From a virus: a stretch of 64,000 bases of DNA. The translations under genes were made by a program, and so were the position numbers. A model generated the notes under the pieces. It was not told where the DNA came from. It did no database searches and saw only the letters and a program-made list of their open reading frames with translations. Position 1 is the first letter of the stretch. Each line of letters starts with the position of its first letter. The DNA lies in IMG/VR virus record IMGVR_UViG_3300042691_005581, positions 1 to 64,000 of that record. One strand, given 5' to 3'. This document shows positions 23,988 through 32,679 of this stretch, one piece after another.

Positions 23988-24436
23988 TAGCTGATCTCTG
24001 ATTTGCCTTGGCCTAAGTTGTTAACATTGATATAGCCCGAACCTCTCCGGTCCATATCAACTCCTGATTCAGCTCCGATATTCCGGCACAAATCTTGAAA
24101 CCATTTGTCGACAATTTCTTCATCTGTTTCACCGTAATAACCTGCTAGTCTTAATTCTACTATAAAAAGCTCGTTCCAGTCAAGTTCAAAAAATCCATTC
24201 TTAACATTGTCCTTATTGACTTTGGTATCCAATACAGCAATATAAGATTCATTGCGTTCGGTTGCTAACTCTTTTGGACTCAGTTTAGATAATCTTTCTG
24301 CTTCTGCGGCATCTGCAATTACTTTGGCAGCTCTTTCAGTAGCTTCCTGAAGTTTTTTTTCTGCTTCGACAGTAGCCTGCTCTAGTTTATCAATTCCGAA
24401 TATTTTTTTAATAAATTTTTTCATCATGTACCCCAC
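23987..24436 (-). CDS. Hypothetical protein
   Basis: Coupled ORF; true start may be 24427 or 24424. Confidence 0.6.
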   Translation of the reverse strand: MGYMMKKFIKKIFGIDKLEQATVEAEKKLQEATERAAKVIADAAEAERLSKLSPKELATERNESYIAVLDTKVNKDNVKNGFFELDWNELFIVELRLAGYYGETDEEIVDKWFQDLCRNIGAESGVDMDRRGSGYINVNNLGQGKSEIS

Positions 24437-25284
24437 TCATTCTTAAACAATGGAACTTGTAAACGATCACTATATCGCAAGCCTGCTCGCATGGCCAAAT
24501 CTGCCACACGTCGATTGTTTAGGGAATAGACACTTTCTACTCCACCAACTGGCATTAGATATACATGACCTTTGAATCCGGCAGCACGATACGCACCGAT
24601 AGCACATTCAGCATCTGCAAAGTCTTGTTCAGTAGCAATAACAAATTTTAGATATACAGTGCCTACAGTTTCATAATTGCAAACAACATCTGGTTTGATA
24701 GCATCGTCCCACGGTTCTCCGGAACATGGAAGTTTGGCACTAACTGAGAATGTAACTTCTCTTTCTAGCTTATGGTCTTGATTTTGCCACATACCTAAAT
24801 ATGTTTTAAATTCTTTTGTTAGACGCATAGTGCCGTTGGTTTCAAATGTAATCTCTTTGAGACCTGCCATCTTTGGATTATTCAGAAGTTCTGGATAGGC
24901 TTTTTGCCAACCTAACAATGGCTCACCTCCAGTGATAACCAAGTGCTCATCCTTCCACTCACCGTGCGGAATAATTTCCATAATACGATCTGCAATAGCA
25001 TCAGTAGTCAGCATAGGACTTAGATCTTTAAATTCGGGCATCCAGCTGGCGTAGCTGTCACAACCTGTACTAACTAGTGGTAACATCTTGTAGTCTGCAT
25101 AGGGTGTAATCTTGTGAGCTTTTGCAATGTCTTCGGCTTCTGCACTCAATTCTCCGCGAGACATGCCAAACCCTTGACATTTAAAGTTACATCCAAATGT
25201 ACGTAAGAAGACGGAAGGTACTCCCATGTACCTTCCTTCACCTTGAATACTGTAAAAAAGTTCTGATATTTTAATTTTATTCAT
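24424..25284 (-). CDS. queE: 7-carboxy-7-deazaguanine synthase (radical SAM)
   Basis: ELFYSIQGEG..G.PSVFLR..GCNFKC...CDS (third Cys after an insertion), ITGGEPL, ETNGT, RLQVPLF. Confidence 0.9.
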   Translation of the reverse strand: MNKIKISELFYSIQGEGRYMGVPSVFLRTFGCNFKCQGFGMSRGELSAEAEDIAKAHKITPYADYKMLPLVSTGCDSYASWMPEFKDLSPMLTTDAIADRIMEIIPHGEWKDEHLVITGGEPLLGWQKAYPELLNNPKMAGLKEITFETNGTMRLTKEFKTYLGMWQNQDHKLEREVTFSVSAKLPCSGEPWDDAIKPDVVCNYETVGTVYLKFVIATEQDFADAECAIGAYRAAGFKGHVYLMPVGGVESVYSLNNRRVADLAMRAGLRYSDRLQVPLFKNEWGT

Positions 25285-25549
25285 AAATTCCTGACCATTG
25301 TTTTAATTTTTCGATCTTAGCCTGCTTGGCAGTGTTAAGACCTTCTTCTGTTATAATACTATAAGATTTTAACAGATCTACCATAGCAAGTACATCCCCA
25401 ATTTCACCTTCTAAGTGCTGTGCATTAGTCAACGGCTTACCGGGTTTAAAATTGTTTAAACCAAATCGGTGACATTTACTTACTGCTTGAATTACTTCTG
25501 CACATTCCTCACTGAGGATGTTCATTACTTCGTGTAGTTTATTATCCAT
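25277..25549 (-). CDS. MazG-like NTP pyrophosphohydrolase
   Basis: EECAEVIQAVSK and EGEIGDVL motifs. Confidence 0.8.
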   Translation of the reverse strand: MDNKLHEVMNILSEECAEVIQAVSKCHRFGLNNFKPGKPLTNAQHLEGEIGDVLAMVDLLKSYSIITEEGLNTAKQAKIEKLKQWSGIYE

Positions 25550-26003
25550 TATTTGCTCTTTCTGTTAGGTACGTTTCATTGTGTACCCATTTGTTGTTTA
25601 CTAGGAAACCCCATTCTCTACGTTGTGGACCAGGCATGAACATTGTCCAGCAGTCTGTTCCTTCTTTAAGCTCAACACGGTGATAGCTATTAGCAGGGCA
25701 AATACGGAAGTGCCCAGGACCACGCCAATGCCGTGTTTCACTGATCTTGGCACCTTGTGAATCAAAGTTAGGAGTCCATTCATAATAACCACCTTTAAGT
25801 ATTAGAGTAGCGTAAGGCCATGGATGATCATGTACATCATCTGGATCTGACTTAAGAAACTTGTGTAAGAATACATTGAATGGAAATCGCTTCCTATCTT
25901 TAAGAAAGAGATAGTAACGTTCTAAGTAAGGTTCGCTGTTCACACGATCCATTACAATACGTTTCCGATCTAGCAGTTCTAGAAGTTTAAGCAGAACCTT
26001 CAT
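25542..26003 (-). CDS. Cupin-fold protein
   Basis: LH.F..SD.D..HDHPW, GGYYE, YHRVEL metal-binding cupin pattern. Confidence 0.7.
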   Translation of the reverse strand: MKVLLKLLELLDRKRIVMDRVNSEPYLERYYLFLKDRKRFPFNVFLHKFLKSDPDDVHDHPWPYATLILKGGYYEWTPNFDSQGAKISETRHWRGPGHFRICPANSYHRVELKEGTDCWTMFMPGPQRREWGFLVNNKWVHNETYLTERANNG

Positions 26004-26262: not shown

Positions 26263-26766
26263 TTAAAAAGGCCATTGATTGCTAGGAGCAGGCCTTGATT
26301 TTAATTTAACATTTTCTTCGATTACAGTACCGTCGTCCTCACATAGATCTACTTGATACGGAGCATCGATTACTAGATATTCATCTTCGAGTTGCCAATC
26401 GTGCTCTGCATCAAATAACCAGGCAGCACCTGATCGTTCAAATTCTTCATTACCATCGCCTTCTAAATAACACCGCTTAATTTCTTCTTGTTCTTCTTCG
26501 CTAATGTCATCACTAAAATCGAACCAACAAGCATGTTGGTCATCTAATTCTGCACCCCAGCCGCAATCTGTTTTAGCATGGGCCTGCTCGTCTCCCTCGT
26601 AAGGCAAATTGCAGTCAAGTTCTTCTTCAACAAAGCCTTGTCCCCAACGATAGTGATCATCAATGTTAAACCAACTGATACTACCGTCCGCATTTTCGCG
26701 GAACATTTCAATGTGCCAGCAAATGCTTTTCTTATGTAACGGTTTAATTAGATAAACTTTAGACAT
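26263..26766 (-). CDS. Acidic hypothetical protein (paralog of the next gene)
   Basis: D/E-rich; shares KKS, YR[WF], CW and DW.LED motifs with 26766-27269. Confidence 0.65.
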   Translation of the reverse strand: MSKVYLIKPLHKKSICWHIEMFRENADGSISWFNIDDHYRWGQGFVEEELDCNLPYEGDEQAHAKTDCGWGAELDDQHACWFDFSDDISEEEQEEIKRCYLEGDGNEEFERSGAAWLFDAEHDWQLEDEYLVIDAPYQVDLCEDDGTVIEENVKLKSRPAPSNQWPF

Positions 26767-27269
26767 TAGTCTTCCTTGAAATCACTTACATTGCCATCTT
26801 CGTCTGCAATGATAATACGAATATTAGTTTCGTCGTCTTCGTTGGTAACTTCAATTGGGCCCCAGATATAAACTTCGGTATCTTCCAAGTACCAATCACC
26901 TTCATCTTCTAACGCATAAGCACCGTTTTCGTCAATAAATTCTTGTAACTCTTCAATTTCGTTGTCATCTTCGATGCCTTCAATTTCTGTATCACCCCAG
27001 CAACCGCCATCGAACATATCGATCATTTCGGAACTGATAATGTTGTTAGCTTCGCATGAATACATATCTAAGCTGTCAGTTTTACCATCGCCGCCGGGTA
27101 CTTGAACAAACTCAAACTCTGGAAAATTATCGTCTTCAGTTTCTACTCTGAAAGTACAAAAACGGTATCCGTCTTTAACCGTAATTCGCCCTGTGCCGTT
27201 GCGTTGAACATAGTGTTCATGCTGTTCGCATGATTTTTTATAGTGTGTTTTAACAATCCAAAATGCCAT
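26766..27269 (-). CDS. Acidic hypothetical protein
   Basis: Probable start MAFWIV at 27269 (GAGG RBS) rather than 27353. Confidence 0.65.
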   Translation of the reverse strand: MAFWIVKTHYKKSCEQHEHYVQRNGTGRITVKDGYRFCTFRVETEDDNFPEFEFVQVPGGDGKTDSLDMYSCEANNIISSEMIDMFDGGCWGDTEIEGIEDDNEIEELQEFIDENGAYALEDEGDWYLEDTEVYIWGPIEVTNEDDETNIRIIIADEDGNVSDFKED

Positions 27270-27273
27270 AATA

Positions 27274-27972
27274 TTACCTCGGAGCAAAGTCTTGTTGCAA
27301 TTTAATGTTATCAAAGAATTCTTTCTTTGTACTTTGATCGTCTTTAAATGCACCTTTTAACACAGTAGTCTGTGTCAATGAACTATGTGCCATGATGCCG
27401 CGATTCTCACAGCATCCATGAACAGCCTGTACATAAACGCCTACGTCTGTTGCGTCTGTTGCTTTTTGGATTTCCCTAGCAATATCATTACAAAGTTCCT
27501 CCTGGAGAGTCCCTCGTCTTGCACACCACTGGGCGATTCGTGTGTACTTTGATAATCCAATAAGTTTGTTAGCAGCCAAAATGCCAATATAAGCAACGCC
27601 ACTAACGGGTTGGTGATGATGACTACACATACTGCGAAGCTCACTACGAACAACCAGCATACCTTCGTAGCGGTCCTGCGAATCATTTGGAAATGCTGTT
27701 GCGTCTGGTGCTTGTTCATATCTACCTGCCATTATTTCGTTGAAATACATTTTAGCCAACCGGCGTGCTGTACCTTTTGAGTTAGGATCATTTTCACGAT
27801 CAATTAGCAATGTATCTAGCACTTGTTCAAATGCCGCAGTTGCTTCGTCAATTAGTTCTGGCAACACATTGTCATCAACATATTCGCTAATGTTGTCTCC
27901 TGCCCAGAAACGTTTGTTATCGCTACGCATTCTATTACGAATTACCTGCGATAGGTTCTTACTTGTATCCAT
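27274..27972 (-). CDS. folE: GTP cyclohydrolase I
   Basis: SMCSHHHQP, IGLSKYTRI, ARR..LQE, HGCCENRG. Confidence 0.95.
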   Translation of the reverse strand: MDTSKNLSQVIRNRMRSDNKRFWAGDNISEYVDDNVLPELIDEATAAFEQVLDTLLIDRENDPNSKGTARRLAKMYFNEIMAGRYEQAPDATAFPNDSQDRYEGMLVVRSELRSMCSHHHQPVSGVAYIGILAANKLIGLSKYTRIAQWCARRGTLQEELCNDIAREIQKATDATDVGVYVQAVHGCCENRGIMAHSSLTQTTVLKGAFKDDQSTKKEFFDNIKLQQDFAPR

Positions 27973-28012: not shown

Positions 28013-28042
28013 ATTGTAACTTTATTTAGGCAAGTTGGTCAA
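28013..28042 (-). promoter_or_regulatory. Possible composite promoter for folE
   Basis: TTGACC-18-TACAAT with CTAAATA inside the spacer. Confidence 0.45.
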
Positions 28043-28828
28043 CCTCAGCAGTAAATTCTTTTTTACTGCGGAGTCTATTACGTTGAGATTTGCATCATGA
28101 CATTCTGCATATCTTATTAATGCAGACGTGTCTTTAGGAAAACACATACCGCCAAATCCTAATGCGCCATCTGGACCTGGGACTCTAAAATGGCTATTTC
28201 CTAGTCGAGGATCTAATTGCACTAATTCTGCAATTTTATTATAATCTTCTCCTGTGTTTTTGCACAATTGAAATATCTCATTCATAAACACAACTTTGGT
28301 AGCTAAGAAACAGTTAATTGTATATTTGGCAAAACTTGCCTGTGCCGGTGTGCAATATTTTATATCTGTTAATAGTTTTTGTCCCATTCTAATAAGACGT
28401 TCTGCTTCTCTAATCCAAGCAGGAATTGAACCACCGATGATGGCAAATTTGCCATGTGCATAATCTCTACTGGCATTTGCAGCCGTTAAAAATTCCGGAG
28501 CATGAACTAAATTTTTATGTTTTATTGATAAACGTTCGTATACGTTTGGAGGTGCAGTAGTTTTACTAATGATGACACCTGCAAAGTCTTTCAATTCTTC
28601 TAATACTGATTCGAGAATAGTAGTGTCGCAGCTTCCGTCATCTTTTGATGGGCTGGGTACACATACAAATACTCCCTCACAATCTTCTAAATCTTTATAG
28701 GTATTAGGCAGTCCTTTTGGAGGATCAACTAATACCAATTCGCAAAATAAATCATCTAAACTGTCACGAACAGCAGTACCTACAAATCCTAATCCTACGA
28801 TTCCTATTTTTGTTTTTTCTTTAAACAT
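28022..28828 (-). CDS. UDP-glucose/GDP-mannose dehydrogenase family protein (short form, no C-terminal domain)
   Basis: GIVGLGFVG, FVCVPSP, PEFL, AKY..N.FLATKV.FMNE, GFGGMCFPKD (catalytic Cys). Confidence 0.9.
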   Translation of the reverse strand: MFKEKTKIGIVGLGFVGTAVRDSLDDLFCELVLVDPPKGLPNTYKDLEDCEGVFVCVPSPSKDDGSCDTTILESVLEELKDFAGVIISKTTAPPNVYERLSIKHKNLVHAPEFLTAANASRDYAHGKFAIIGGSIPAWIREAERLIRMGQKLLTDIKYCTPAQASFAKYTINCFLATKVVFMNEIFQLCKNTGEDYNKIAELVQLDPRLGNSHFRVPGPDGALGFGGMCFPKDTSALIRYAECHDANLNVIDSAVKKNLLLRLTNLPK

Positions 28829-29904
28829 TATTTTAAATTCTCCAATAATTTATTTGCACTAAAGAATCGTTCAGTTAGATCGGCAACTTGTTTGCGAATA
28901 GTAGGAACCCTGCTATGATAATTGTCCATGTGTTGCATAATAGCAAAACATAGATTAGGCCTATGTTCTTCATATGCTGCAAACGATTCAGTCCATTTAC
29001 TAGGATACTTAAAAGTATCATAATACATTTCAGTATAACTTAGTCTGTCCGGCACCATAGGAATAGCATCTACTAACGCACCTTCGTAGCAACTAATGCC
29101 CAAAGTTTCTTGTAGATTAGCACTAAACACTAACTTAGCTTCGCCTAGCAAATTATGATATTCATTTTTAGTCAGTTGTTGATCCTGACAAACAACAAAT
29201 TCATACTGTGGCAAATGTTCTTTTAGATTGCGGAAGATCTCAACTTGTTTCTCTGGAGCAATACGATGCGGGAACAGAATAAGATCACGCTTAGGCATGT
29301 TCTTGTATGCTGTCAAAGTATTGTCCATATACTCCATAGGCCATCCTGTTCGTACAATATCACCATTAGCCATATAGCGAATACGACCTGTTCGAGCATC
29401 GACTTTTAATAAATTTTCTAGAAACAAATTGATATGAAAGTCTGTAGCAAAGTAGTTGTGATCAATAGCATGGAAGAAGCTAGCCTCGGCATTACGTACC
29501 CAAGGAGCATCCCCGATAAGACGTCCTAGGAAGTCTTGGGGATCATAACTGCCAGCATGCCAAAGAGCGTGGATAGTTACAGGAATTCCGAGAAGCCCGG
29601 CCATGTATTTGAGATTGATGATACCAGGGTGCCAAGCATCAGTGAATACAAAATGATCACCTGGGCAAACGGCTCCGTTGCAAAATAGCCTACCCATGTG
29701 TTCAACCTGTGCTGCCTTATATATGTTGGTACCGCCAAAATTAAGGAAAGCACCAGGCGTAGTGGCAGCAGGAATATCTGTAGGGCCAGAGATAATTTGA
29801 ACATTGTGTCCTGCCTTTTTAAGTAGAGAAGGAACGTGAAGTTTCCACTCACCTGTATAGCGAGTGGAAACAGCCTCTAAATCAATTAGAAAAACGTTCG
29901 CCAT
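28828..29904 (-). CDS. GT-B (GT4-like) glycosyltransferase resembling the GTDC1/QTMAN-DUF3524 family
   Basis: ILFPHRIAPEKQ and EY..LL.EA..VFSA..QETLGIS.YEG...AIP.VPDRLSY.E; probable start MANVFL at 29904. Confidence 0.8.
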   Translation of the reverse strand: MANVFLIDLEAVSTRYTGEWKLHVPSLLKKAGHNVQIISGPTDIPAATTPGAFLNFGGTNIYKAAQVEHMGRLFCNGAVCPGDHFVFTDAWHPGIINLKYMAGLLGIPVTIHALWHAGSYDPQDFLGRLIGDAPWVRNAEASFFHAIDHNYFATDFHINLFLENLLKVDARTGRIRYMANGDIVRTGWPMEYMDNTLTAYKNMPKRDLILFPHRIAPEKQVEIFRNLKEHLPQYEFVVCQDQQLTKNEYHNLLGEAKLVFSANLQETLGISCYEGALVDAIPMVPDRLSYTEMYYDTFKYPSKWTESFAAYEEHRPNLCFAIMQHMDNYHSRVPTIRKQVADLTERFFSANKLLENLK

Positions 29905-30124
29905 TGTTTCGATTTTCGTAGCGTGGGTTCTTACCCTTGTATCCTTCACGCGGCTTACCACGATTTGAAAAATACCGATACTCTTGAGAGCGATATAAGT
30001 CTGCAGGATTAAAATCTAATAGATTAAATCGGCAGTGGTCGAGCCATGCTTCTAAGTCGTCGAAGATTTTAGATACTTCGGGTTTCATGCGGAGAGTTTT
30101 TTGAATATAGGCAGGTTGTGCCAT
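29882..30124 (-). CDS. Small hypothetical protein
   Basis: AAGGA RBS. Confidence 0.6.
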   Translation of the reverse strand: MAQPAYIQKTLRMKPEVSKIFDDLEAWLDHCRFNLLDFNPADLYRSQEYRYFSNRGKPREGYKGKNPRYENRNNGERFSN

Positions 30125-30133
30125 GTTTTTTCC

Positions 30134-30508
30134 TTAATTGGAAGTTGTTGATAAAGTTGGAATATACTCTACAATACCATCTGATTCGCCGTCTTCGGAG
30201 ACTACAATCTCGTAAGATCGATTAGTTCCGTATGAGGGAATTAAATGGTTCTGCAAAATATCTGTTGCTATCATTTCGCAGGATTTATGATTTTGATTAC
30301 CTGCTTTGATAAAATCTTGTAATGCCCACTTGACAAGGAAGAATTCTAATTCTCTATCAAGATGAGTGACTGAAATTTTTACTTCAACTTTGAACATGTG
30401 ACGATGTTCGTTTTCTAAAAACTGAATACGAGGATCAATTGATCCTGCGTTCGGATAAAAGTGAAATCCTTGAAATTCAGTACGAATTTTAATATATGTA
30501 TTTGTCAT
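30134..30508 (-). CDS. QueD-like T-fold protein with LxxxHRHxF motif (DpdL-like)
   Basis: F.GFH, LENEHRHMF, SCEMIA, VSEDGE; lacks the CxxxHGH motif of canonical QueD. Confidence 0.7.
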   Translation of the reverse strand: MTNTYIKIRTEFQGFHFYPNAGSIDPRIQFLENEHRHMFKVEVKISVTHLDRELEFFLVKWALQDFIKAGNQNHKSCEMIATDILQNHLIPSYGTNRSYEIVVSEDGESDGIVEYIPTLSTTSN

Positions 30509-31023
30509 TTGATAATCTTATCGTTTTTATATTGTGACCAGTCTGTAAAATTTTTACGATCCATTAGTGTGTGCAAACTGTGACTCCACACACCAGGGTT
30601 AGTTGCATTAAAATCTTTGTCGTCAATTTTAATCATCGTATTATAATTCCAAAGTTTTACATATGGAATAGGCACACGAATTTGAGGAATAAAATTTGAA
30701 TGTTCGTTTAGACTGCCATCGTGAAATTCTTCCACTGCACTTAGTGGAATGTCAAGACTGCATAGATAACCTTTTTCTAGGAAGAATTCGATCATATCTT
30801 CCCAGGCCTTCCAACCGTCGTAATCATTGAAGGCAGGATTGAAGCTGTGATTTGCACCAAAGAAAATATGCTCGCAACCTTGCAAGTTTATAGCAATAGT
30901 TTCTACAGGTTGAACACCTACTACAAACAGAGTTTTGAGTCCGTATGCAGGAGTATGTTCAATTTCGGTGCCAGTAAAGAATATCACTTCTTCTTTAATA
31001 CCAGTATCATAATCTCGTTTCAT
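30505..31023 (-). CDS. Conserved hypothetical protein of the deazaguanine cluster
   Basis: Lies between the dpdA-like and QueD-like genes; has its own promoter. Confidence 0.65.
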   Translation of the reverse strand: MKRDYDTGIKEEVIFFTGTEIEHTPAYGLKTLFVVGVQPVETIAINLQGCEHIFFGANHSFNPAFNDYDGWKAWEDMIEFFLEKGYLCSLDIPLSAVEEFHDGSLNEHSNFIPQIRVPIPYVKLWNYNTMIKIDDKDFNATNPGVWSHSLHTLMDRKNFTDWSQYKNDKIIK

Positions 31024-31029
31024 ATGTTA

Positions 31030-31058
31030 ACTATAGCAGACTTTATATTAGATGTCAA
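31030..31058 (-). promoter_or_regulatory. Sigma70-type promoter, predicted leaderless transcript
   Basis: TTGACA-17-TATAGT; the A of the ATG is 7 nt downstream (31023); no RBS. Confidence 0.65.
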
Positions 31059-32679
31059 TACTTTTTTCTAATGCACGTAGCTCGTCATCGTCCGGATTTT
31101 CTAAATCGATTTCTGCAGATTTGGTAACCGTTTCGATTTCAAACAGTCCATTGAAAGTATTTTGGGCAGGTCCACCTTGCAAACGAGATCCTTCCAAACT
31201 GCGTAAAAATGGGCCAGCATCGTCGATAATGGCAAATGCTTCTTCTTTGGATTTAGTATTAAATAGATCTTCGATAAAAGAACTAAAATACAAAATGTTA
31301 CGTGGAACCCAATCACTGTACTCGTCGCTCATATCGCTAGCTTTGACCTTCTTCCAATGTTTCCAAGTTAACTTATCTTTAGTCTTTGCAATTTCAATGT
31401 CCATTAACTGTTGAGCACGTTGTACAGCAACAATATGACATTCTACATTGTGACCCATCATTAATGCATAGGCAAAACTATCCCAAGATGTTTTATTAGG
31501 AATCTTACCTAGTTTATTAAGTCTAGGCACAACATGATAGTGTTCTGTATTCAAGTGATCAAACTTAGCACCATTTAACTCTGCATCAGTTTTGCGTTTG
31601 CCTAAATCATAATAGGCAATGTCTGCCATTGTTAAGCGTCTGCCGATTGACGATTCGAATGGGAATGGAATGTCGCTTCCTGCAAGTGCTTTGTTGTCTG
31701 GGGCCTTGTCCATAATAACACTCCACCTTTTTGGCGTGTGGACTGCGTTTGTGTAGACAAGTCCGTGCGCTGTTGCGATGAACGGTGAGGCGCAGTCAAA
31801 AGATATGGTAAGCTCTTCATTGATATGTTTCCTAATTTGTCTTTGAATTAACGTTAAGTAACAACTCCAGTCAAGTTGCGCTGTACCCAAGAAGTGGATC
31901 CAGTTTTTGCCCTTCAGCAAACCATCTTCTCTAAGCGTCATCATACGCTTGAGAGTAATATCCATCTTGCACATGTTAGCACCACCAAAGGCCCAACCTT
32001 CTGCTTCACGCCCTGCATACTTGCCTTTAGGGTCGCTAAATTCTTTTACACCTGCATACCACTTTTCAGCAGTGTCCCAATCACCGCCTTGAAGAACGTT
32101 AAGCCATTTAGTATGACCTAAACGATTCATTAGGAAGTAATCGTTATTGAATCGTGTCTTGTCTAGACAGTCTTCAAATGTTTTCAATCCAGTCTTAGGA
32201 CTGTGAATGTGATCACATGCCCAAGTAGGCACGTCTAGCATCATTGACCAATCAGCAGTTAGTTCTAACCACTCAAGAATCTTTTGACGAGTTTTAGTAG
32301 CTTCTTTGCCTTCAAAGTCGAGCCAGTCAAACTTAAGAACGCCCTTACCAATTTGGTATCCGCCGGAGTCTCCCAGAATCATTGTATTCCCGCGATCACG
32401 TTGTTGGATCATTGACTCCTGCGTCATACTCTTTTGTAAGTCTAACTGTGCGTGACCCGCAGAGTACAGACCATACTTATATGTGAAATATCCTTCTTCA
32501 GGATTTAGAAAGTTCATACCTTCAATGCCACGATCAAATCCTGCTGGAATTCGATCGTCAGAAATAAACTTTTCAAGCCTTTGTTTAGCGATGTATGTAC
32601 TATAGAAACTACTAATTGCTGGCAAATACACAGCATAGTCTTTCTGTAGTGGTGTTAGGTTAAGTTGTTGTTTGCTCAT
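31048..32679 (-). CDS. dpdA: DpdA/TGT-family 7-deazaguanine transglycosylase, probably DNA-acting
   Basis: TGT barrel motifs GDSGGYQ, MMLDVP, NVLQG, GWAFGG, HFLG, SFDCASP; clustered with folE and queE; no CxCxxC Zn site of bacterial tRNA TGT. Confidence 0.8.
   Translation of the reverse strand: MSKQQLNLTPLQKDYAVYLPAISSFYSTYIAKQRLEKFISDDRIPAGFDRGIEGMNFLNPEEGYFTYKYGLYSAGHAQLDLQKSMTQESMIQQRDRGNTMILGDSGGYQIGKGVLKFDWLDFEGKEATKTRQKILEWLELTADWSMMLDVPTWACDHIHSPKTGLKTFEDCLDKTRFNNDYFLMNRLGHTKWLNVLQGGDWDTAEKWYAGVKEFSDPKGKYAGREAEGWAFGGANMCKMDITLKRMMTLREDGLLKGKNWIHFLGTAQLDWSCYLTLIQRQIRKHINEELTISFDCASPFIATAHGLVYTNAVHTPKRWSVIMDKAPDNKALAGSDIPFPFESSIGRRLTMADIAYYDLGKRKTDAELNGAKFDHLNTEHYHVVPRLNKLGKIPNKTSWDSFAYALMMGHNVECHIVAVQRAQQLMDIEIAKTKDKLTWKHWKKVKASDMSDEYSDWVPRNILYFSSFIEDLFNTKSKEEAFAIIDDAGPFLRSLEGSRLQGGPAQNTFNGLFEIETVTKSAEIDLENPDDDELRALEKSIDI

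What the first reader, a model, noticed from the sequence alone, without database searches (positions are those of the whole stretch)
28828..29904. The cluster's glycosyltransferase resembles the queuosine-tRNA mannosyltransferase (GTDC1/QTMAN, DUF3524) family
Seen: FPHRIAPEKQ and EYHNLLGEAKLVFSANLQETLGISCYEG...PMVPDRLSYTEM. From memory, GTDC1 and its bacterial DUF3524 relatives carry WPHRWEHDK.P and EY...L..AD.V.STA.HEFFG...LEA...G..P..P..L.YPE. GTDC1 mannosylates queuosine, a 7-deazaguanine, in animal tRNA. Inference: a phage homologue inside a deazaguanine operon independently supports a deazaguanine acceptor and may point to the origin of eukaryotic Q-glycosylation. The alignment is by eye and recollection only.
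Basis: partly seen in the sequence, partly recalled or inferred. Interest (0 to 1): 0.85.

Follow-up and report, generated by a model that had tools for sequence, protein, structure and literature searches.

The report
Phage deazaguanine-cluster glycosyltransferase, sister of QTMAN
A jumbo-phage gene encodes a sugar-adding enzyme whose nearest cellular relatives are the enzymes that put mannose on the tRNA base queuosine; it always sits among the genes that put 7-deazaguanine into phage DNA, so it probably makes a sugar-bearing deazaguanine not yet described in DNA.

Summary
The minus-strand ORF 28828-29904 (358 aa) carries the quoted motifs, and the recalled GTDC1 motifs are real in Pfam-verified QTMAN proteins.

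The kinship is real. The phage family's profile scores 36-97 bits on bacterial and animal QTMAN proteins. It scores at most 34 bits on any other glycosyltransferase in about 450 bacterial genomes, and at most 25 bits on any solved structure. In 77 of 77 genomes that have QTMAN_N, the family's profile hits at QTMAN-level scores.

Two limits apply. The specific likeness lies in the C-terminal (donor-binding) half; the N-terminal QTMAN_N signature is not met. The family is therefore a phage sister family, not a member, and kinship alone says little about the acceptor. The tree also places the phage clade beside all QTMANs, so a phage origin of the animal enzyme is neither supported nor rejected (AU p 0.13).

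The deazaguanine link rests on synteny. In six divergent phage lineages the gene lies beside DpdL-, FolE- and QueE-type genes; in five of them a TGT-fold DpdA-type gene is also nearby (Phosso's lies far off).

Most likely it glycosylates a 7-deazaguanine-derived base of phage DNA. The chemistry is unproven.

The scan reached the same reading before on another genome (e1-6023019).

The parts
28828..29904 (-). GT-B glycosyltransferase, 358 aa (P0001); phage sister family of QTMAN/DUF3524
   Evidence: The AF2 model has pLDDT 96.8. Fold matches are GT4/GT5 enzymes at Z 20-26. hhalign to the QTMAN family gives E 4.8e-26. An EX7E motif lies at E266/E274, with R214 and K219 conserved.
28022..28828 (-). 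Short UDP-glucose/GDP-mannose dehydrogenase-family protein, 268 aa. It has the NAD-binding and central domains and the catalytic-Cys motif GGMCFPKD, but no C-terminal nucleotide-sugar-binding domain. Its start overlaps the GT stop (TAATG).
   Evidence: It hits PF03721 and PF00984 only. It aligns to residues ~80-301 of ~445-aa UGDH structures. The junction was read. It occurs in only 27/80 close loci and 1/8 divergent loci, so it is accessory.
29882..30124 (-). 80-aa ORF of unknown function between the DpdL-like gene and the GT; it overlaps the GT start by 23 nt
   Evidence: It is present in 80/80 close loci and not detected in divergent ones. It has no family hit.
30134..30508 (-). DpdL-type T-fold protein (QueD paralogue), 124 aa, with motif LENEHRHMF
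   Evidence: The motif LxxxHRHxF defines DpdL in PMC10516641. It is 40% identical to the ACP17 127-aa protein next to that phage's GT. It lies beside the GT in nearly all loci.
30505..31023 (-). 172-aa protein of unknown function; homologue of the ACP17 132-aa ORF that precedes DpdA3
   Evidence: phmmer E 4.8e-15 to ACP17; present in 68/80 close loci. It has no Pfam or PHROG hit.
31048..32679 (-). TGT-fold, DpdA-like guanine transglycosylase, 543 aa, with DSGGYQ and SFDCASP motifs
   Evidence: The AF2 model has pLDDT 80.5. All top 50 Foldseek hits are tRNA-guanine transglycosylases. hhalign to the ACP17/BUDD DpdA3-type set gives probability 96%, E 2.4e-9. It is 42% identical to the PA5oct protein directly upstream of that phage's GT.
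27274..27972 (-). FolE, GTP cyclohydrolase I
   Evidence: PF01227 E 4.9e-40.
24424..25284 (-). QueE-like radical-SAM 7-carboxy-7-deazaguanine synthase
   Evidence: Radical_SAM and Fer4_12 hits are weak. It is homologous to the annotated QueE of PA5oct, ACP17, BUDD and BCSR5.
25277..26003 (-). MazG-like NTP pyrophosphohydrolase (25277-25549) and cupin (25542-26003); lineage-specific accessories
   Evidence: PHROG 4856 and 4786. The cupin is in 71/80 close loci but 0/8 divergent loci and not in PA5oct or ACP17.

Best explanation
The gene encodes an active-looking GT-B glycosyltransferase of the GT4 type. It belongs to a large phage-only family that is the sister group of the QTMAN/GTDC1/DUF3524 family, the enzymes that mannosylate queuosine (a 7-deazaguanine) in tRNA.

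It is a core part of a phage 7-deazaguanine DNA-modification module. The proposed pathway is as follows.
- FolE, QueD (outside the window, at 75.6 kb of the contig) and QueE make 7-carboxy-7-deazaguanine.
- The DpdL-type T-fold enzyme alters that product. The literature proposes, without proof, a decarboxylation to 7-deazaguanine.
- The TGT-fold DpdA-like enzyme swaps the base into phage DNA in place of guanine.
- The glycosyltransferase then moves a sugar from a nucleotide-sugar onto that base, most likely on DNA by flipping the base into the inter-domain cleft.

In this lineage, the neighbouring truncated dehydrogenase may turn the hexose into a uronic acid.

Shown here: the fold, catalytic motifs, kinship, synteny, and the TGT fold of the partner. 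Inferred: the acceptor, DNA as the substrate form, the donor, and the order of steps. The acceptor atom is unknown. Candidates are the 7-carboxylate, a ring carbon, or a side chain not yet recognised.
For: Fold and motifs. The model has pLDDT 96.8 and two Rossmann domains. It matches sucrose-phosphate synthase (Z 26.1), BshA (25.1), glycogen synthase, PimB' and PglA. E266-x7-E274, R214 and K219 are conserved across 60 diverse members, as are many N-domain residues.

Kinship.
- hhalign of the phage family against the QTMAN family gives probability 99.7%, E 4.8e-26.
- The phage HMM scores 36-95 bits on 35/35 metagenomic QTMAN-family proteins.
- It scores a median of 78.6 bits on 120 eukaryote-type proteins, many named tRNA-queuosine alpha-mannosyltransferase.
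- In 301 genomes of one phylum, all 77 genomes with QTMAN_N are hit at 38-77 bits. The 19 best cellular loci are all QTMAN genes (333-498 bits with the QTMAN HMM).
- The best other GTs score 19.6-34.4 bits, and 205 genomes give no hit.
- In a second phylum, 146 of 149 genomes gave no hit and the best non-phage hit was 32.6 bits.
- Shared derived motifs are [FW][PN]HR....K.P and P.[VL]P.RL[SA]Y.E, where ordinary GT4 enzymes have a GG loop.

Synteny. The GT lies next to a DpdA-type gene in PA5oct, ACP17 (order DpdA3-GT-DpdL-QueE), Xanthomonas BUDD and Burkholderia BCSR5. It lies next to DpdL, FolE and QueE in Phosso. The pattern repeats in 7 of 8 divergent viral contigs.

Partner. The 543-aa protein has a TGT fold.

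Biology. PA5oct DNA resists enzymes that cut at G and is sensed as G-modified; the adduct is unidentified (PMC12191111). ACP17 DpdA plus DpdL alone gave no dDG in E. coli, and the authors suggested that other enzymes are needed. The GT lies between those two genes (PMC10516641).
Against: The QTMAN-specific similarity is confined to the donor-binding C-terminal half. The N-terminal half alone gives hhalign probability 12%, and 0/60 members hit PF12038. The acceptor site is therefore not demonstrably QTMAN-like.

If DpdL really yields unsubstituted 7-deazaguanine, no hydroxyl is available as an acceptor. Cellulophaga phage phiST has DpdL and dDG but no homologue of this GT.

No modified nucleoside bearing a sugar has been reported for any of these phages.

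The protein is mildly acidic (pI 6.2), which is not typical of DNA binders.

A language-model search put a generic actinobacterial GT cluster, not a QTMAN cluster, as the nearest cellular named cluster. Actinomycetota and Pseudomonadota genomes could not be sampled.
Confidence: 0.55

Rival explanations
1. The enzyme glycosylates a free small molecule of the pathway before DpdA inserts it, or makes a soluble end product. Candidate acceptors are the 7-deazaguanine base, CDG, or a pterin intermediate, by analogy with cyanobacterial tetrahydrobiopterin glucosyltransferases.
For: FolE and a PTPS-like T-fold protein are also the first steps of pterin synthesis. The pterin glucosyltransferase 5zer is a fold match at Z 20.5. 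The protein is not basic. The N-domain is not QTMAN_N-like.
Against: The pterin GT ranks 21st, no better than many GT4 enzymes, and is not found by sequence profile. QueE and a TGT-fold enzyme are always present, and a pterin product would not need them. TGT-family base pockets are tight, so inserting a sugar-bearing base would require a much enlarged pocket (established knowledge of TGT; not tested here).
Confidence: 0.17
2. The module modifies tRNA rather than DNA. The GT would work like QTMAN, on a deazaguanine at the wobble position of host or phage tRNAs.
For: Its nearest relatives act on tRNA. The partner has a tRNA-guanine transglycosylase fold.
Against: There are no tRNA genes in the window. 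PA5oct, which carries the same gene pair, has G-modified DNA. DpdA3/DpdL-type clusters replace G in DNA in phiST. The tRNA-binding QTMAN_N signature is not met.
Confidence: 0.07
3. It is an ordinary GT4 enzyme for a cell-envelope or protein target. On this view the QTMAN likeness is only superfamily-level and the gene neighbourhood is incidental.
For: Some sources label relatives 'glycosyltransferase involved in cell wall biosynthesis'. All top fold matches are generic GT4/GT5 enzymes. A distant homologue in Xanthomonas phage PhiXhv-15 sits with GlmS and a deacetylase instead of deazaguanine genes.
Against: The scores on QTMAN are 2-4 times those on any other GT in about 450 genomes. The adjacency to DpdA/DpdL/QueE is kept in lineages whose GTs share only 25-50% identity. 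No QTMAN structure matched in the PDB sequence copy, so fold ranking could not favour it.
Confidence: 0.05

Closest known systems
QTMAN / GTDC1 (tRNA-queuosine alpha-mannosyltransferase) and bacterial DUF3524 proteins (Pfam PF12038 QTMAN_N + PF00534)
   Same: Both have the GT-B fold and similar length (~360 aa). QTMAN is the best cellular match in both directions by profile. The two share C-domain motifs ([FW][PN]HR....K.P; E/D-x7-E; P.[LV]P.RL[SA]Y.E). Both are linked to 7-deazaguanine chemistry.
   Different: The N-terminal domain does not meet the QTMAN_N model. In the tree the family is a separate phage clade, sister to all QTMANs. The genomic context is a DNA-modification module rather than tRNA. 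Donor and acceptor are unknown.
Phage DpdA3/DpdL 7-deazaguanine pathway (Cellulophaga phage phiST, dDG; PMC10516641)
   Same: FolE, QueD, QueE, a DpdL-type T-fold protein (LxxxHRHxF) and a distant TGT-family DpdA are present; QueC is absent.
   Different: phiST has no homologue of this glycosyltransferase, and its end product is plain dDG. Here, and in PA5oct, ACP17, BUDD, BCSR5 and Phosso, a GT is embedded in the module. The published analysis does not mention glycosylation.
Phage DNA glycosyltransferases acting on 5-hydroxymethylpyrimidines (T4 alpha-glucosyltransferase, PDB 1y6f)
   Same: It is a GT-B enzyme encoded by a phage next to base-modification genes. The expected logic is a post-replicative sugar transfer to a flipped-out modified base.
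   Different: It is only a mid-rank fold match (Z 18.4, rank 37) with no detectable sequence similarity. The target here would be a purine analogue, not hydroxymethylcytosine.
Generic retaining GT4/GT5 enzymes (BshA, sucrose-phosphate synthase, glycogen synthase, PimB', PglA)
   Same: They give the best structural superpositions (Z 22-26) and share the EX7E motif and the Arg/Lys pair.
   Different: Sequence profiles barely connect them (24.6 bits at best against the PDB). The GG loop of GT4 is replaced by RL[SA]Y.

Membership tests
QTMAN / GTDC1 / DUF3524 (PF12038 + PF00534) | N-terminal QTMAN_N domain (PF12038, cut-off 25 bits) | tested here: not met
   There is no match in the 77-kb contig at E<=10. 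None of 60 family members hits at E<=1. N-domain-only hhalign gives probability 12%, E 0.0024. True members score 134-225 bits.
QTMAN / GTDC1 / DUF3524 (PF12038 + PF00534) | C-terminal catalytic half specifically QTMAN-like (closest family in both directions) | tested here: met
   C-domain hhalign gives probability 99.8%, E 6.4e-28. All 77 QTMAN_N-bearing genomes are hit at QTMAN-level scores (38-77 bits). The 19 best loci were confirmed as QTMAN genes, and other GTs score 34 bits or less.
QTMAN / GTDC1 / DUF3524 (PF12038 + PF00534) | Signature W[NP]HRWE[YH]DK.P at the start of the C-domain | tested here: inconclusive
   The phage family has I.FPHR.APEKQP. The H, R, K and P positions and their spacing are kept; the Trp, Glu and Asp positions are not.
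QTMAN / GTDC1 / DUF3524 (PF12038 + PF00534) | P-L-L-P-x-R-L-A-Y-P-E segment in place of the GT4 GG loop | tested here: met
   P0001 has PMVPDRLSYTEM at residues 282-293. L288, S289, Y290 and E292 are 90-100% conserved.
QTMAN / GTDC1 / DUF3524 (PF12038 + PF00534) | Transfers mannose from GDP-mannose to queuosine-34 of tRNA-Asp | not testable with these tools
   This needs an enzyme assay.
GT-B fold, GT4-type (retaining) glycosyltransferases | Two Rossmann-like domains with an inter-domain cleft | tested here: met
   The AF2 model has pLDDT 96.8, pTM 0.93. The best VIA match is Z 26.1, rmsd 3.2 over 317 residues to 6kih. 413 Foldseek matches have E<=0.001, and all those listed are GT-B enzymes.
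GT-B fold, GT4-type (retaining) glycosyltransferases | EX7E motif and the Arg/Lys pair that hold the donor diphosphate | tested here: met
   E266 and E274 (invariant), R214 and K219 are all at least 90% conserved in 60 members.
GT-B fold, GT4-type (retaining) glycosyltransferases | Pfam Glycos_transf_1 (PF00534) above its gathering score | tested here: inconclusive
   P0001 itself gives no hit. 41 of 60 relatives hit weakly, best E 1.6e-6.
Phage 7-deazaguanine DNA-modification module (DpdA type) | A TGT-superfamily DpdA encoded with FolE, QueD and QueE | tested here: met
   The 543-aa protein has a TGT fold and is homologous to the DpdA3 type. FolE and QueE are in the window. A PTPS/QueD gene lies at contig 75584-75922. 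No QueC is in the 77 kb.
Phage 7-deazaguanine DNA-modification module (DpdA type) | A 7-deazaguanine derivative actually present in virion DNA | not testable with these tools
   There is only indirect evidence, from a relative: PA5oct DNA behaves as G-modified (PMC12191111).

The most novel reading that the evidence does not exclude
These phages carry a sugar-bearing (in this lineage perhaps uronic-acid-bearing) 7-deazaguanine in their DNA. To my knowledge this would be the first glycosylated purine-type base in any DNA. The enzyme that makes it shares a direct ancestor with the animal and bacterial queuosine mannosyltransferases. If so, glycosylating a deazaguanine within a nucleic acid would be one ancient enzymatic invention, used on tRNA by cells and on DNA by viruses. 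If DpdL does give plain 7-deazaguanine, the linkage could even be a C-glycoside.
Probability: 0.45. Interest if true: 0.85.

Novelty: new variant of a known kind. Interest (0 to 1): 0.74.

Why it matters
It gives a concrete, testable candidate for the unidentified guanine modification of PA5oct-like jumbo phages, which are used in Pseudomonas work, and of ACP17, Phosso and a very abundant environmental phage group (more than 8,000 near relatives in metagenomes).

It may explain why DpdA plus DpdL alone failed to reconstitute a modification: the gene lying between them was left out.

It extends the known glycosylated DNA bases, so far all pyrimidines, to a purine analogue. That bears on restriction evasion, on sensing by modification-dependent nucleases, and on sequencing artefacts.

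It also gives the newly named QTMAN family a sister group. And it draws attention to widespread bacterial QTMAN homologues of unknown function, present in a quarter of the sampled genomes of one phylum and often as two paralogues.

Tried and rejected
- Single-sequence searches of P0001 against Pfam, NCBIfam, PHROGs and PDB sequences gave nothing usable.
- Fold searches cannot speak to QTMAN. The QTMAN profile found no QTMAN chain in the PDB sequence copy; its best hit was a generic GT, 5i45. Its absence from the Foldseek and VIA lists therefore says nothing either way.
- The protein-atlas searches returned almost only the phage family itself. The nearest cellular named cluster was a generic actinobacterial GT (score 0.97, 169 shared features), not QTMAN. 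This could not be followed up, because no Actinomycetota or Pseudomonadota genome handle could be obtained.
Contexts of distant members were taken from GenBank phages and viral contigs instead.
- Neighbours of bacterial QTMAN homologues showed no common theme: an aminotransferase, TetR, GGDEF and a Gly-zipper protein.
- MAG assignments of three related contigs (Crocinitomicaceae, Fischerella, Erysipelotrichaceae) disagree, so they were not used as host evidence.
- The longer GTG start at 29961 was rejected.
- Literature searches found no paper linking a phage glycosyltransferase to QTMAN or reporting a glycosylated deazaguanine in DNA. The 2024 MMBR review was not held.
Full report
**The gene**

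The finding's coordinates hold a minus-strand ORF. Its ATG is at 29904 and its TAA stop at 28830-28828, giving 358 aa (P0001).

The stop overlaps the start of the next gene (TAATG), and the start is overlapped by the end of an 80-aa ORF. The gene therefore sits in a tightly packed, co-oriented run.

The window is part of a 77-kb IMG/VR viral contig, estimated 17% complete. Its DNA polymerase is closest to those of Sinorhizobium phage Phosso and Agrobacterium phage Atu_ph07, at 46-50% identity. This points to a jumbo-type phage.

**First pass**

On its own, the protein hits nothing in Pfam, NCBIfam, PHROGs or PDB sequences. It is nevertheless far from an orphan. More than 8,000 metagenomic proteins were scored as relatives; the best 120 listed are 78-89% identical. 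At 50% clustering, 1,079 cluster representatives match at E<=0.001.

A 60-member alignment (A1, 28-85% identity to the query) shows invariant or near-invariant residues in both halves. These include R214, K219 and E266-x7-E274, the usual donor-binding and catalytic positions of GT4-type enzymes. Forty-one of the 60 members hit Pfam Glycos_transf_1 weakly. None hits PF12038, which Pfam now calls QTMAN_N.

**Structure**

AlphaFold2 with A1 gave a very confident model (pLDDT 96.8, pTM 0.93) with two Rossmann-like domains.

| Search | Best matches |
|---|---|
| Foldseek | BshA, archaeal glycogen synthase, MshA and other GT4/GT5 enzymes |
| Exhaustive VIA search | Sucrose-phosphate synthase 6kih (Z 26.1, rmsd 3.2, 317 aligned), BshA (25.1), glycogen synthase (22.9), PimB' (22.5), PglA (22.3) |
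| Lower VIA ranks | Phage HY126 GT (19.4), T4 alpha-glucosyltransferase (18.4) |

No QTMAN entry appeared. That is not evidence against kinship, because a profile of true QTMAN proteins found no QTMAN chain in the PDB sequence copy.

**Getting real QTMAN sequences**

No tool gave them directly. I back-translated the recalled motif W[NP]HRWE[YH]DK and scanned metagenome contigs. This found more than 120 genes, where about one was expected by chance. The ORFs are mostly ~320-390 aa with the motif near residue 190. Six sampled ones hit PF12038 at E 1e-49 to 1e-60, plus PF00534.

Thirty-five complete ones form alignment A2. One of them, L141, is of eukaryote type. Its relatives include many animal proteins named tRNA-queuosine alpha-mannosyltransferase or GTDC1.

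**The decisive comparison**

- Profile-profile alignment of A1 with A2 gives probability 99.7%, E 4.8e-26 over 276 columns.
- With a common database size, the phage HMM scores 36-95 bits on all 35 A2 proteins, and the QTMAN HMM scores 33-76 bits on all 60 phage-family proteins.
- The phage HMM scores a median of 78.6 bits (up to 96.7) on 120 eukaryote-type QTMANs.
- Its best score against every solved structure is 24.6 bits.

I then searched whole genomes, each of which carries many ordinary GT4 genes.

- In 301 genomes of the phylum of a Crocinitomicaceae MAG, 96 had a hit.
- Seventy-seven of the same genomes have QTMAN_N, and all 77 are among the 96.
- The 19 best cellular loci all score 333-498 bits with the QTMAN HMM.
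- In genomes without QTMAN_N, the best hits are 19.6-34.4 bits, apart from one 45-bit hit on a truncated 147-aa frame (G299, not examined). 205 genomes give no hit at all.
- In 149 genomes of a second phylum (that of an Erysipelotrichaceae MAG), only three non-phage hits appeared, the best at 32.6 bits.

**Where the similarity lies**

Splitting both alignments at the domain border changes the picture.

| Comparison | hhalign result |
|---|---|
| C-terminal halves | Probability 99.8%, E 6.4e-28 |
| N-terminal halves | Probability 12%, E 0.0024 |
| Mismatched halves (control) | E about 0.2 |

The shared derived features are all in the C-terminal half. They are [FW][PN]HR....K.P, and P.[VL]P.RL[SA]Y.E at the place where GT4 enzymes have a Gly-Gly loop.

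In GT-B enzymes, the C-terminal domain mainly holds the nucleotide-sugar and the N-terminal domain holds the acceptor (established knowledge). Kinship is therefore solid, but it says more about the donor side than about the acceptor. The protein also fails the defining N-terminal model of the QTMAN family. I file it as a sister family, not a member.

**Tree**

A 54-row maximum-likelihood tree (quick search) combined 16 phage proteins, 9 eukaryotic proteins, 19 metagenomic or genomic QTMAN-family proteins presumed bacterial, and 10 next-best GT4 proteins as outgroup.

- It groups phage plus QTMAN proteins apart from 9 of the 10 outgroup rows (SH-aLRT 90).
- The phage clade has support 84 and is sister to a clade of all QTMANs (90).
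- The eukaryotes are monophyletic (100) inside the QTMAN clade.
- One very long outgroup row attaches to the phage clade, probably an artefact.
- Forcing phage plus eukaryotes together costs 11.8 log-likelihood units but is not rejected (p-AU 0.13).

A phage source for the animal enzyme is thus neither supported nor excluded.

**Context**

The neighbouring genes were checked individually.

- The 543-aa protein upstream has DSGGYQ and SFDCASP motifs. It aligns to the ACP17/BUDD DpdA3-type proteins (probability 96%, E 2.4e-9). It folds as a tRNA-guanine transglycosylase: all top 50 Foldseek hits are TGTs.
- The 124-aa protein carries LENEHRHMF. This is the LxxxHRHxF signature by which Cui et al. 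defined DpdL, their proposed and unproven CDG decarboxylase (PMC10516641). It is 40% identical to the ACP17 homologue.
- FolE and QueE are in the window.
- A PTPS/QueD gene lies at 75.6 kb of the contig.
- No QueC and no tRNA genes were found.

**Synteny**

Homologues of the GT occur in Phosso (51% identity), PA5oct and its relatives (41%), Acidovorax phage ACP17 (36%), Xanthomonas phages BUDD and X1 (27%) and Burkholderia phage BCSR5 (24.5%).

| Phage | Arrangement around the GT |
|---|---|
| PA5oct | The GT directly follows the 540-aa DpdA-like gene, and is followed by a DpdL-like gene and QueE |
| ACP17 | QueD, FolE, 132-aa ORF, DpdA3, GT, DpdL, QueE |
| BUDD | FolE ... GT, 'queuine tRNA-ribosyltransferase', DpdL-like, QueE |
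| BCSR5 | Similar to BUDD |
| Phosso | DpdL-like, GT, FolE, QueE |

Among 80 close viral contigs, 73 keep DpdL and 67 keep the DpdA-like gene within 8 kb; many of these contigs are truncated. Among 8 divergent contigs, 7 keep DpdL and FolE, and all 8 keep a DpdA-type gene.

The only exception is a marginal homologue in Xanthomonas phage PhiXhv-15, which sits with GlmS and a deacetylase. The dehydrogenase, the cupin and the MazG-like gene are lineage-specific accessories.

**Link to experiments**

PA5oct DNA resists several enzymes that cut at G-containing sites. It is also targeted by nucleases that sense modified G. Its adduct has not been identified (PMC12191111).

Cui et al. expressed ACP17 DpdA and DpdL in E. 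coli and saw no dDG. They suggested that other enzymes may be needed. The GT lies between those two genes, and their paper does not mention glycosylation.

phiST, which makes plain dDG, has no homologue of this GT.

**Mechanism proposed**

CDG is made by FolE, QueD and QueE and is processed by DpdL. The TGT-fold enzyme installs it in DNA. The GT then adds a sugar.

The truncated dehydrogenase keeps its catalytic Cys motif but lacks the nucleotide-sugar-binding domain. It may make a uronic-acid form, either on the donor or, speculatively, on the sugar already attached.

The acceptor atom is the weak point. Plain 7-deazaguanine offers no hydroxyl, so the link would have to be an ester on the carboxylate, a C-glycoside, or a bond to a side chain made by an unrecognised step.

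**Literature and earlier notes**

No paper in the searchable library links a phage GT with QTMAN, or reports a glycosylated deazaguanine in DNA.

I saw that note only after my own tests were done. A first-reader note on this window gave me the DpdL lead (e1-6085292), which I then checked against the paper.

**Verdict**

Kinship with QTMAN is real but confined to the catalytic C-terminal half. Family membership is not met, so this is a sister family. A role in deazaguanine DNA modification is strongly indicated by synteny. The product is unknown and is directly testable in cultured phages.

Noticed in passing
window 28022-28828 (-): This UDP-glucose/GDP-mannose dehydrogenase-family protein has only 268 aa. 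It keeps the NAD-binding and central domains and the catalytic Cys motif, but lacks the whole C-terminal nucleotide-sugar-binding domain. It is translationally coupled to the GT (TAATG). It might act on a sugar already attached to DNA rather than on an NDP-sugar.
   Followed up: partly
window 30505-31023 (-) and L003:7236-7718: This 172-aa protein has no family hit. It is homologous (E 5e-15) to the 132-aa ORF that directly precedes DpdA3 in Acidovorax phage ACP17, and it is present in 68 of 80 close contigs. It is a possible further pathway component.
   Followed up: partly
G000 contig 75584-75922 (-), outside the window (L248): The canonical PTPS/QueD gene (43.9 bits to PF01242) lies about 45 kb from the rest of the deazaguanine genes. 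No QueC is present in the 77 kb.
   Followed up: partly
Genomes G006-G303: QTMAN_N proteins are found in 77 of 301 sampled genomes of one bacterial phylum, often as two paralogues per genome. No glycosylated queuosine is known in bacteria to my knowledge, and the neighbouring genes show no common theme.
   Followed up: partly
L087, L088, L089, L210, L249: Contigs of this phage group are binned into MAGs labelled Crocinitomicaceae, Fischerella and Erysipelotrichaceae. The assignments disagree, so this looks like binning contamination rather than host evidence.
   Followed up: no
window 26263-27353 (-): Two adjacent, very acidic proteins (167 and 195 aa, rich in D/E with conserved Trp/Cys) lie between the cupin and FolE. 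They have no family hit and are present in only 7-24 of 80 close contigs.
   Followed up: no
L086 (Xanthomonas phage PhiXhv-15, 6800-7903): A marginal homologue of the GT (25% identity over 65% of its length) sits with GlmS and a BshB-like deacetylase instead of deazaguanine genes. This suggests a different sugar pathway in that phage group.
   Followed up: no
L004-L083: In the close contigs the GT is 76-82% identical to the query, while the neighbouring DpdA-like protein ranges from about 90% down to about 40% identity. The transglycosylase therefore evolves, or is exchanged, much faster than the GT.
   Followed up: no
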